From the NCBI RefSeq assembly GCF_009914755.1, contig NC_060930.1: DNA of 64,000 nt; one strand, 5' to 3'. The notes below the pieces were generated by a model, which ran no database searches, was not told the DNA's origin, and saw only the letters and a list, made by a program, of their open reading frames with translations. The stretch comes from the human T2T-CHM13v2.0 reference genome, Homo sapiens. Each line of letters starts with the position of its first letter. The first letter of the stretch is position 1. Made by a program: the position numbers and the translations under genes. Below are positions 11,279 through 12,072 of the stretch, piece by piece.

Positions 11279-12072
11279 AGAGATAGGGTCTTGCTCTGTT
11301 GCCCAGGCTGGAGTACAGTGGTGGGTGCAATCTTAGCTCACTGCAACCTGCAAGTCCTGGGCTCAAGCAATCCTCCTGCCTCAGCCTCCTGAGAACCGGC
11401 TAATTTTTTTTTTTTTTTTTTTGAGACAGAGTCTCACTTTGTCACCCAGGCTGGAGTGCAGTGGCGCAATCTTGGCTCACTGCAAGCTCCGCCTCCCGGG
11501 CTCACCCCATTCTCCCACCTCAACCTCCTGAGTAGCTGGGACTACAGGCGCCTGCCACCATGCCCAGCTAATTTTGTTTTTGTATTTTTAGTAGAGACGG
11601 GGTTTCACCATGTTAGCCAGAATGGTCTCGATCTCCTGACCTCATGATCCGCCTGCCTCGGCCTCCCAAAGTGCTGGGATTACAGACGTGAGCCACTGCG
11701 CCTGGCCCACATAACTTTTCTTACAGCATATTGTTATCATTGTTCTATTTTATTATTAGTTGTGGTTGCAAATCCCATACTGTGCATAGGTGTATGTGTA
11801 CAATTTAGGAAAAAACACAGTACATATAGGGCCCAATATTATCTGCAGTCTCAGGCATCCACTGGGGGTCTTGGAGCATATCCCCCACAGATAAGGGGGC
11901 TACTGTGTACACTTCATAATTAGCCCGACCACCTGGCTAATTTTTAATTTTTGTTTCTAGAAATGGGGTCTCCCTGTGTTGCCCTGTCTGGTCTTGAACT
12001 CCTGGCCTTGTGATACTCTGCCTCAGCCTCCCAAAGCTCTGGGATTACAGGGGTGAGCCACTGCATCCAGCC
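11279..12072 (-). repeat. AluJ host element split by the 11404-11918 insertion
   Basis: Right arm at 11279-11400 and left arm at 11931-12072. Confidence 0.8.
11404..11918 (-). mobile_element. AluY plus about 210 bp of MER44/unique flank, an inverted copy of 33423-33939
   Basis: The non-Alu part is about 93% identical (about 15 differences in 211 nt) to the reverse complement of 33423-33634. Poly(T) at the left end; near-TSD ACC(T)GGCTAATTTTT. Confidence 0.88.

What the first reader, a model, noticed from the sequence alone, without database searches (positions are those of the whole stretch)
11395..11947. Inverted, A-tailed copy of an AluY plus ~210 bp of its 5' flank, with the donor 22 kb away (local 5' transduction or RNA-templated insertion)
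Seen: 11708-11918 is the reverse complement of 33423-33634 at about 93% identity by eye. The match includes the same half of a MER44 and 11 nt beyond its terminal repeat (TACACTTCATA). The adjacent Alus share non-consensus features (ACAAAAACAAAA linker; GTGGGAGAAT(A/G)GGG in place of GCAGGAGAATGGCG). The 33.6-kb Alu has both copies of its TSD and both halves of MER44. The 11.4-kb copy has only the upstream TSD and stops at the A tail, so the direction is 33.6 kb to 11.4 kb. The copy splits an AluJ, is flanked by ACC(T)GGCTAATTTTT followed by AA (the L1 endonuclease TTTT/AA consensus) and has a short filler (ATTAGCCCG) that is an inverted echo of the target. Established: Pol III Alu RNAs start at the Alu 5' end, so Alus do not normally carry upstream flank, and retrocopies normally land far from their source. 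Inference: a read-through or nascent RNA was primed on the Alu A tail and inserted in cis. Repeat masking would hide this event as three unrelated fragments.
Basis: partly seen in the sequence, partly recalled or inferred. Interest (0 to 1): 0.8.

Follow-up and report, generated by a model that had tools for sequence, protein, structure and literature searches.

The report
Inverted local copy of Alu plus flank
A 520-base piece of human chromosome 6, made of an Alu repeat, its A tail and 211 bases of upstream flank, was copied long ago into an older Alu 22 kb away; the copy looks like a LINE-1-driven insertion, which is uncommon but already described.

Summary
Window 11401-11918 (+) matches 33942-33423 (-) in one ungapped-like block: 90.6% over 520 bp, and 93.4% in the 211-bp non-Alu flank. 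Across T2T-CHM13 the flank has only this one partner above 75% full-length identity. The 33.6-kb locus is the donor. It has both halves of the MER44 element and both copies of the Alu's own target duplication. The 11.4-kb copy has only the upstream side and ends at the A run.

The copy sits in an old Alu between ACCGGCTAATTTTT and ACCTGGCTAATTTTT, at a TTTTT/AA site. These are the three classical marks of LINE-1 target-primed reverse transcription.

Three points complicate that reading:
- The A run is 19 in both loci and is followed by TTA in both. That is an 8-nt overlap, so the template ran past the A tail.
- The host Alu lacks 17-29 nt right beside the left duplication.
- The donor is only 22 kb away.

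A DNA-level template switch therefore stays a serious rival. My odds: L1-mediated copy of an RNA 0.55, DNA template switch 0.30, RNA-templated break repair 0.10. Alu-linked transductions and Alu-plus-flank copies are already in print. This is a new member of a known kind, of moderate interest.

The parts
11239..11394 (-). Left arm of the host (old) Alu: its 3' part with a degenerate A tail, antisense on the + strand. It ends ...CCTCCTGAGA.
   Evidence: (11264-11393 aligns to the inserted Alu at 11407-11532, 74.6%).
11395..11408 (.). Left copy of the target duplication, ACCGGCTAATTTTT. On the TPRT reading its 3' T5 is the primer end.
   Evidence: It matches 11931-11945 at 14 of 15 positions (one T indel).
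11409..11422 (-). A tail of the insert: 14 T beyond the duplication. The whole T run 11404-11422 is 19, the same length as the donor's.
11423..11707 (-). Copied Alu body (younger, AluY/S-like), full length.
   Evidence: 34 differences from the donor Alu, many at CpG.
11708..11918 (-). Copied 5' flank of the donor Alu. It holds the upstream copy of the donor Alu's own target duplication, one half of a MER44-type element, and 11-13 nt of unique DNA beyond its terminal repeat (11906/11908-11918).
   Evidence: 93.4% to 33423-33634, the only such match in the genome.
11919..11930 (.). Filler ATTAGCCCGACC at the 5' junction. ATTAGCC is an inverted echo of the duplication. Alternatively, 11923-11930 is native host-Alu sequence.
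11931..11945 (.). Right copy of the target duplication, ACCTGGCTAATTTTT, followed by AA at 11946-11947.
11946..12075 (-). Right arm of the host Alu (its 5' part).
   Evidence: (11936-12064 aligns to 11567-11699, 75.2%).
33423..33634 (+). Donor flank: 11-13 nt of unique DNA plus the first half of MER44, up to the Alu insertion point.
   Evidence: The upstream DNA 33150-33440 is unique in the genome.
33635..33939 (+). Donor Alu with its A19 tail (33921-33939), followed by TTA (33940-42).
   Evidence: Rfam sees only Alu/SRP-type signal here.
33940..34063 (+). Second half of the donor MER44, not present in the copy. It starts with the second copy of the donor Alu's target duplication.

Best explanation
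**What happened.** This is an old LINE-1-mediated (target-primed reverse transcription) insertion. Its template was an RNA read from the + strand across window 33423-33942: at least 211 nt of upstream flank, the Alu, its A run and at least 3 nt beyond.

**Steps (inferred).**
1. The L1 endonuclease nicked the + strand of an old antisense Alu at ...GGCTAATTTTT/AA.
2. The freed TAATTTTT-3' end annealed to AAAAAUUA at the very end of the Alu's A run. It primed cDNA through the Alu and on into the flank.
3. Synthesis stopped or the RNA ended at 33423.
4. The 5' junction was closed with a short snap-back filler.
5. A staggered second nick gave the 14-15-nt duplication.

**Nature of the RNA (inferred).** It was not the Alu's own Pol III transcript, because that starts at the Alu's first base. 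It was more likely a longer read-through transcript that was primed internally on the Alu's A tail, so it behaved like a partial processed pseudogene. In effect this is a 5' transduction carried by an Alu.

**Shown:** copy-donor relation, direction, junction anatomy. **Inferred:** the RNA template, the enzyme, the polymerase.
For: 1. **The three L1 hallmarks are present together.** The A/T run abuts one duplication copy. The duplication is 14 of 15 nt and flanks the insert. The cleavage context is TTTTT/AA. The TTTT/AA consensus is as quoted in PMC3415434, passage seen.
2. **The copy starts exactly at the 3' end of the donor's A run.** It carries none of the donor's downstream MER44 half.
3. 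**Homology-driven DNA repair would look different.** Both loci hold about 300 nt of Alu-Alu homology. TAATTTTT occurs 40 times in the window, mostly inside Alus. A homology-driven DNA switch would be expected to land in register in an Alu and give a chimeric Alu. That is not seen: the inserted Alu is full length with its own tail.
4. **Only two copies exist in the genome**, so this was one event and not a family.
5. **Both copies have aged alike since one duplication.** In the flank, 6 changes are copy-derived, 6 donor-derived and 3 ambiguous, out of 15. In the Alu, 8 are copy-derived, 13 donor-derived and 13 ambiguous, out of 34, judged against 3 young Alus. Resolving the ambiguous ones by the majority of all 25 window Alus gives about 16 against 18 (my hand count).
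6. **The route is known to be possible.** A Pol II-driven Alu does retrotranspose, at a drastically lower rate and needing ORF1p plus ORF2p. Those authors removed the A tail from their construct to avoid internal priming (PMC2666806, abstract and passages seen).
Against: 1. **The host Alu is not a clean empty site plus duplication.** 29 alignment positions are missing from the left arm right beside the left duplication, and 17 are missing from both arms. Simple TPRT leaves the primer-side arm intact. So a deletion either pre-existed at or within a few nt of the duplication edge, or fell there later. I put that coincidence at about 1% (my estimate).
2. **Random landing within 22 kb of the donor is very unlikely.** It has a chance of about 1.4e-5 per event (44 kb of 3.1 Gb; arithmetic only). 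It is tolerable only through ascertainment over very many events, or if there is a local bias.
3. **The 8-nt overlap and equal A19 runs** fit microhomology priming on DNA as well as on RNA.
4. **Nothing RNA-specific is visible.** No intron was lost and there is no extra 5' G. There is no A-to-G cluster: 2 of 6 copy-derived flank changes and 1 of 8 copy-derived Alu changes are A-to-G.
5. **No transcript source is known.** No gene is annotated across the donor on the + strand (hub table). No tRNA or Rfam family lies in or before the flank.
Confidence: 0.55

Rival explanations
1. **DNA-level templated insertion** (replicative template switching of the FoSTeS/MMBIR kind, or polymerase-theta-type break repair). 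A break or stalled end arose in the old Alu. Its 3' end ...TAATTTTT annealed by 8-nt microhomology to the donor DNA 22 kb away on the other strand and copied 520 nt. After a short snap-back it returned to the host Alu a few bases upstream of where it had left. The result is a short duplication, a small loss of host-Alu sequence and an inverted local copy.
For: - The donor is in cis, 22 kb away and inverted.
- There is an 8-nt overlap AAAAATTA at one junction, and the A19 runs are identical.
- A 7-nt inverted echo sits in the filler.
- Loss of 17-29 nt of the host Alu beside the insertion is expected here.
- Inverted duplications are reported in human populations: 227-277 events, median 284 bp, mostly with 1-15-nt microhomology, read as replicative (10.1101/2024.04.18.590093, passages seen).
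- Alus copied with adjacent non-Alu sequence have been read as template switching or templated break repair (PMC4666360, passages seen).
Against: - The flanking repeat has the typical L1 length and ends at TTTTT/AA. The copied block begins exactly at an Alu A tail. All three must then be coincidence; I put that at roughly 1e-3 jointly (my estimate).
- The first step (joining ...GAGA to ACC...) shows no microhomology.
- With about 300 nt of Alu homology on offer, and 40 TAATTTTT sites in the window mostly inside Alus, a DNA end would more likely pair in register with an Alu.
Confidence: 0.3
2. **RNA-templated repair of a break** in the old Alu. This would be endonuclease-independent L1 ORF2p priming, or a repair polymerase with reverse-transcriptase activity, using a chromatin-tethered local transcript of the donor region.
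For: - It combines the host-Alu loss with the start at the A tail.
- A tethered nascent RNA would explain the 22-kb distance.
- Non-classical Alu insertions at breaks are in print. [quoted passage not shown]
Against: - As I recall that class, such insertions lack target duplications and often lack A tails. Both are present here.
- There is no evidence of a + strand transcript over the donor.
Confidence: 0.1
3. **No copying event.** Two independent Alu insertions into two MER44 copies, or a dispersed MER44-Alu composite family, or a fragment of a segmental duplication.
For: MER44-type elements are numerous: 1353 first-look candidates.
Against: - Other MER44 copies are 69-75% identical over full length to these two, against 93% between them.
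- The Alu sits at the same base in both loci, with the same upstream duplication copy.
- 11-13 nt beyond the MER44 end are shared.
- There is no third copy in the genome.
- The DNA outside the 520 bp is unique on both sides of the target and upstream of the donor.
Confidence: 0.02

Closest known systems
5' transduction by L1 and SVA retrotransposons
   Same: The upstream flank is contiguous with the element at the source locus. It is carried with the element into a new site, inside the target duplication and ending in poly-A.
   Different: Here the element is an Alu, whose own Pol III transcript starts at its first base. The long-read 1000 Genomes study reports transductions for L1 and SVA only (10.1101/2024.04.18.590093, passages seen). 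No upstream promoter is identified here. The copy landed 22 kb from its source.
Alu insertion-mediated transductions catalogued among human-specific insertions (Tang et al. 2018, PMC6191304)
   Same: Extra non-Alu sequence lies between the Alu and one copy of its target duplication. Table 2 gives 187.9 kb of such sequence for human-specific Alus and 0.2 per 1000 Alus (passages seen).
   Different: The present event is much older: 6.6% flank divergence.
Polymorphic old Alus copied with adjacent non-Alu sequence (Wildschutte et al. 2015, PMC4666360)
   Same: An Alu plus contiguous flank is duplicated from another locus. Shared private mutations show a common source (passages seen).
   Different: Those authors infer non-TPRT mechanisms. 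For the two Alus that carry adjacent sequence, the passages do not state whether a target duplication and tail are present. Here the duplication, tail and endonuclease-type site are all present.
Processed pseudogene or 'pol II Alu' retrotransposition with internal priming on an A-rich tract (Kroutter et al. 2009, PMC2666806; Wagstaff et al. 2012, PMC3415434)
   Same: An Alu lies inside a longer transcript and is mobilised by L1 proteins. Priming occurs on the Alu A tail and not at the transcript's end.
   Different: Those are cell-culture reporter data. No transcript, splice junction or polyadenylation signal can be shown here.
Small inverted duplications of replicative origin (10.1101/2024.04.18.590093)
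   Same: A few hundred bp, inverted, with microhomology at junctions.
   Different: How close those copies lie to their source was not stated in the passages I read. They are not reported there with an A-tail end or an L1-type site (passages seen).

Membership tests
L1-mediated (TPRT) retrotransposed insertion | Target-site duplication of roughly 7-20 bp flanking the insert | tested here: met
   11395-11408 against 11931-11945: 14 of 15 positions, one T indel. Caveat: only GGCTAATTTTT (11 nt) is certain if 11923-11934 is native host-Alu sequence.
L1-mediated (TPRT) retrotransposed insertion | Poly-A at the 3' end of the insert, abutting the duplication | tested here: met
   T run 11404-11422: 19 T, of which 5 belong to the duplication.
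L1-mediated (TPRT) retrotransposed insertion | Insertion at an L1 endonuclease-type site, 5'-TTTT/AA | tested here: met
   ...GGCTAATTTTT/AATTTTTG at 11945/11946. The consensus is as quoted in PMC3415434.
L1-mediated (TPRT) retrotransposed insertion | Pre-insertion site otherwise intact (no loss of target DNA) | tested here: inconclusive
   The host Alu lacks 29 alignment positions in the left arm, 17 in both arms. Whether this predates the event needs an outgroup genome, and none is held here. No paralogous empty site exists in the genome.
L1-mediated (TPRT) retrotransposed insertion | RNA intermediate | not testable with these tools
   The copied stretch has no intron. No A-to-G cluster is present: 2 of 6 copy-derived flank changes and 1 of 8 copy-derived Alu changes.
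5' transduction | Transduced flank contiguous with the element at a single identifiable source locus | tested here: met
   33423-33942 is colinear with the insert. It is the only genomic match of the flank above 75% full-length identity.
5' transduction | Transcription from a promoter upstream of the source element | not testable with these tools
   No expression data are held. No tRNA or Rfam family lies in or before the flank. 33423 may be a cDNA truncation point and not a transcript start.
5' transduction | Source element is an active progenitor with other offspring | tested here: inconclusive
   7 other Alus share the 21-nt motif. None has the MER44 flank, and they do not share the other private changes consistently. 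The Alu-only search is uninformative (40 of 2439 candidates scored).
DNA templated insertion (template switching or microhomology-mediated repair) | Donor nearby in cis | tested here: met
   The two loci are about 22 kb apart and inverted.
DNA templated insertion (template switching or microhomology-mediated repair) | Microhomology at the junctions | tested here: inconclusive
   8 nt (AAAAATTA) at the A-tail junction. 0-1 nt at the 5' junction and at ...GAGA/ACC....
DNA templated insertion (template switching or microhomology-mediated repair) | Breakpoints unrelated to retroelement landmarks | tested here: not met
   One end is exactly the 3' end of an Alu A tail. The target is a TTTTT/AA site.
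Endonuclease-independent (non-classical) Alu/L1 insertion at a break | No target duplication, often no A tail, target loss (features recalled, not read here) | tested here: not met
   The duplication and the A tail are both present. Only the target loss would fit.
Composite mobile family (SVA-like) | Many dispersed copies of the same composite | tested here: not met
   Two copies in 3.1 Gb.

The most novel reading that the evidence does not exclude
The insertion is a true L1-type reverse transcription of a chromatin-tethered or nascent local transcript that never left its neighbourhood. On this reading, retrotransposition of nuclear-retained RNAs has a strong local (tens of kb) bias. Repeat masking hides that bias, because the products look like an ordinary Alu beside an unrelated old repeat fragment.
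Probability: 0.2. Interest if true: 0.6.

Novelty: new member of a known kind. Interest (0 to 1): 0.35.

Why it matters
It is a clean, fully resolved old example of an Alu moved together with its upstream flank. All junctions are readable and the donor survives.

If such copies prove to lie near their donors more often than chance allows, that would point to capture of nuclear RNA in cis by the L1 machinery, or to RNA-templated repair. It would also mean that repeat-masked genome comparisons miss a class of local duplications.

As a single locus it does not show this. It has no annotated gene or functional element, and no consequence for PPP1R14C or ULBP3 is apparent.

Tried and rejected
1. 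**Paralogous empty site.** The unique DNA left (10650-11260) and right (12080-12300) of the host Alu has no second copy in the genome. The pre-insertion state cannot be read from a paralogue.
2. **Sibling Alus.** The Alu-only genome search returned 39 full-length hits at 89-91% plus one 34-nt fragment, and not the 11.4-kb copy itself (40 of 2439 candidates scored). It is uninformative. The motif search found 7 further Alus, none with the flank.
3. **An upstream Pol III gene or structured RNA as the start.** ARAGORN found 0 genes in 32000-34500. Rfam at E<=1 gave 5 hits, all inside the Alu.
4. **Bacterial-type promoter and terminator scan of the donor**. It does not apply to human DNA and is disregarded.
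5. **RNA-editing signature.** No A-to-G excess appears among copy-derived changes.
6. **Alu-Alu homologous repair or gene conversion.** Rejected. It predicts a chimeric host/donor Alu, whereas the inserted Alu is full length with its own tail.
7. **Independent insertions or a composite family.** Rejected.
8. **Earlier findings of this scan** were not open.
The share of 5' cases and donor distances in print remain unseen.
10. **Literature on local bias.** One search gave 4 papers, 3 of them listed. Passages of 10.1101/2023.07.12.548661 deal with interchromosomal 3D co-localisation of retrocopies with their parents and exclude same-chromosome pairs. They do not bear directly on this case.
11. 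**A report of this locus or of local Alu 5' transduction.** None of my four completed searches turned one up. That is not proof of absence.

Full report
**What is there.**
- On the + strand at 11.2-12.1 kb lies an old antisense Alu, interrupted at 11395-11945.
- The interrupting block reads: ACCGGCTAATTTTT; 14 more T; a full-length younger Alu in antisense (11423-11707); 211 nt of non-Alu sequence (11708-11918); 12 nt of filler (11919-11930); ACCTGGCTAATTTTT; then AA and the rest of the old Alu.
- blastn against the whole window gives one continuous match, 11401-11918 (+) to 33942-33423 (-): 90.6% over 520 columns, 47 mismatches, 2 gaps. All other hits are Alu-only and stop at 11707 or within about 20 nt beyond it.
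- A global alignment and a multiple alignment put the flank at 14 mismatches and one indel in 211 columns (93.4%).

**Is it more than repeat-family likeness?** Yes.
- The flank plus filler (11708-11930) was searched in the window's own assembly, T2T-CHM13. It returned itself, the 33.4-kb locus at 93% over positions 1-211, and 38 MER44-type copies at 70-75% near-full-length or 80-85% over about 100-nt parts. 40 of 1353 first-look candidates were scored.
- In the alignment with 26 such copies (10 rows printed), the outgroups become alignable at the terminal CAGTAG. The 11-13 nt before it are shared only by the two window loci.
- Both loci carry the Alu at the same base of the MER44.
- The DNA left and right of the host Alu, and upstream of the donor, is single-copy.
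- The block is therefore one 520-bp copying event. It is not a family and not part of a larger duplication.
- A window self-comparison found only one other pair-specific repeat, noted below.

**Direction.**
- At 33.6 kb the Alu is flanked on both sides by its own short duplication.
- The sequence after its A run continues into the second half of MER44, up to the other terminal repeat near 34063 (best outgroup L027, aligned 33935-34110).
- The 11.4-kb copy has only the upstream side and ends in the A run.

**Age.**
- With the 26 outgroups, the 15 flank differences split into 6 copy-derived, 6 donor-derived and 3 ambiguous.
- In the Alu body there are 34 differences. Against the three youngest window Alus, 8 are copy-derived, 13 donor-derived and 13 ambiguous. 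Using the majority of all 25 window Alus for the ambiguous ones, I count about 16 against 18 by hand.
- I dropped the 16 rows of that table that lie beyond the A run, where the two loci are not homologous.
- Both copies have thus aged alike since one duplication.
- At 6.6% flank divergence, and with recalled primate neutral rates of about 1-2e-9 per site per year, the event is some 15-30 million years old. This is an inference.

**Shared Alu characters.**
- Copy and donor share these against the three young window Alus (four of the six against only 2 of the 3): a 3-nt linker insertion, the two changes giving GTGGGAGAAT, and a G in GGGGTG.
- None is private to them. The linker form recurs in window Alu 4976 and in L033. 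The 21-nt motif occurs in 9 Alus genome-wide, 7 of them elsewhere with unrelated flanks.
- The flank, not the Alu, carries the proof. The Alu-only search did not even return the 11.4-kb copy among its 40 scored hits.

**Junction anatomy.**
1. *A-tail junction.* Both loci have a run of exactly 19 A followed by TTA. In the donor, TTA is the first three bases of its flank. In the copy, it is host-Alu sequence. The two therefore overlap by 8 nt (AAAAATTA). The template must have run past the A tail, and the priming end TAATTTTT-3' sat in register at the tail's very end.
2. *Target.* The + strand was opened at ...GGCTAATTTTT/AA. This matches the L1 endonuclease consensus TTTT/AA quoted in PMC3415434.
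3. *Duplication.* 14 of 15 positions match.
4. *Filler.* It holds ATTAGCC, the inverse of GGCTAAT in the duplication. This is reached by 0.36% of shuffled fillers and 3.2% of random window 12-mers. That fits a snap-back during closure of the 5' junction.
5. *Host Alu.* Against 25 window Alus, the left arm runs to ...CCTCCTGAGAACC and then jumps to GGCTAATTTTT, skipping 29 alignment positions. The right arm's 11923-11934 occupies 12 of them (8 of 14 identical without gaps, better with two 2-nt gaps). 17 positions are absent from both arms.

**Mechanism.**
- Tail, duplication and cleavage site together are the standard signature of L1 target-primed reverse transcription. That is my best reading (0.55).
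- The RNA cannot be the Alu's own Pol III transcript, because that starts at the Alu's first base. No tRNA or Rfam family lies in or before the flank.
- A longer transcript primed internally on the Alu's A tail is the simplest source.
- Cell-culture work shows this route is possible but inefficient. A Pol II-driven Alu retrotransposes at a drastically lower rate and needs ORF1p as well as ORF2p. Those authors removed the A tail from their construct to prevent internal priming (PMC2666806, abstract and passages).
- Position 33423 may be the RNA's start or only the point where cDNA synthesis ended.

**Why I do not go higher.**
- Simple TPRT leaves the primer-side arm untouched. The host-Alu gap must then be an unrelated deletion that happens to abut the duplication.
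- A random landing within 22 kb has a chance of about 1.4e-5 per event.
- Both facts are natural if a broken or stalled DNA end in the old Alu switched by microhomology to the nearby donor DNA and back (rival, 0.30).
- Small inverted duplications with 1-15-nt microhomology are a recognised replicative class: 227-277 events, median 284 bp (10.1101/2024.04.18.590093, passages).
- Alus copied together with adjacent sequence have been read as template switching or templated break repair (PMC4666360, passages).

**Against the DNA rival.**
- The L1-type length and site of the duplication, and the start exactly at an A tail, would all be coincidences.
- About 300 nt of Alu-Alu homology, and 40 TAATTTTT sites in the window mostly inside Alus, should have drawn a DNA end into register with an Alu. 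That would give a chimera, which is not seen.

**Hybrid.** RNA-templated repair of a break using a tethered local transcript would explain the gap, the tail and the distance. It does not fit the presence of a duplication (0.10).

**Comparison with what is known.**
- 5' transduction is established for L1 and SVA (10.1101/2024.04.18.590093, passages).
- For Alu, Tang et al. 2018 list 187.9 kb of transduced sequence and 0.2 transductions per 1000 elements among human-specific insertions (PMC6191304, Table 2 as seen).
- If such events are as common as that table suggests, one chance landing near a donor somewhere in the genome is not extravagant. I inspected this locus only because copy and donor share a window.
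- My four completed literature searches found no report of this locus or of a local bias for Alu-plus-flank copies. That is not proof of absence.

**Verdict.**
- The RNA-in-cis reading is possible but not shown.
- It is a new member of a known kind, of moderate interest.
- The outgroup empty site is the decisive missing datum.

Noticed in passing
window 17589-17977 and 20031-20420: Direct repeat pair of about 390 bp, 91.3% identical and 2.4 kb apart. It is the only other pair-specific repeat in the window self-comparison. It may be the two LTRs of an old LTR element. The ends I read gave no clear termini or target duplication.
   Followed up: partly
window 11404-11422 and 33921-33939: Both A tails are pure runs of exactly 19 after an estimated 15-30 million years. 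The 7 other Alus fetched with the shared motif mostly have interrupted, degenerate tails. Equal length fits in-register priming at the tail's end, but its survival is unexplained.
   Followed up: partly
window 33772-33823 (+): Rfam mir-1268 model matches inside the donor Alu at 72.1 bits, below the gathering score of 83. This is an Alu-derived family, so the hit most likely reflects the Alu and not a distinct gene.
   Followed up: no
window 12086-12105: A short (GTT)n run lies directly after the host Alu's 5' end.
   Followed up: no
G000 loci L032-L034, L037-L040: Seven Alus on other chromosomes carry the same three-change motif (GTGGGAGAAT..GGGGTGA) as copy and donor. This is either parallel change or a small Alu sub-lineage, and was not resolved.
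   Followed up: partly
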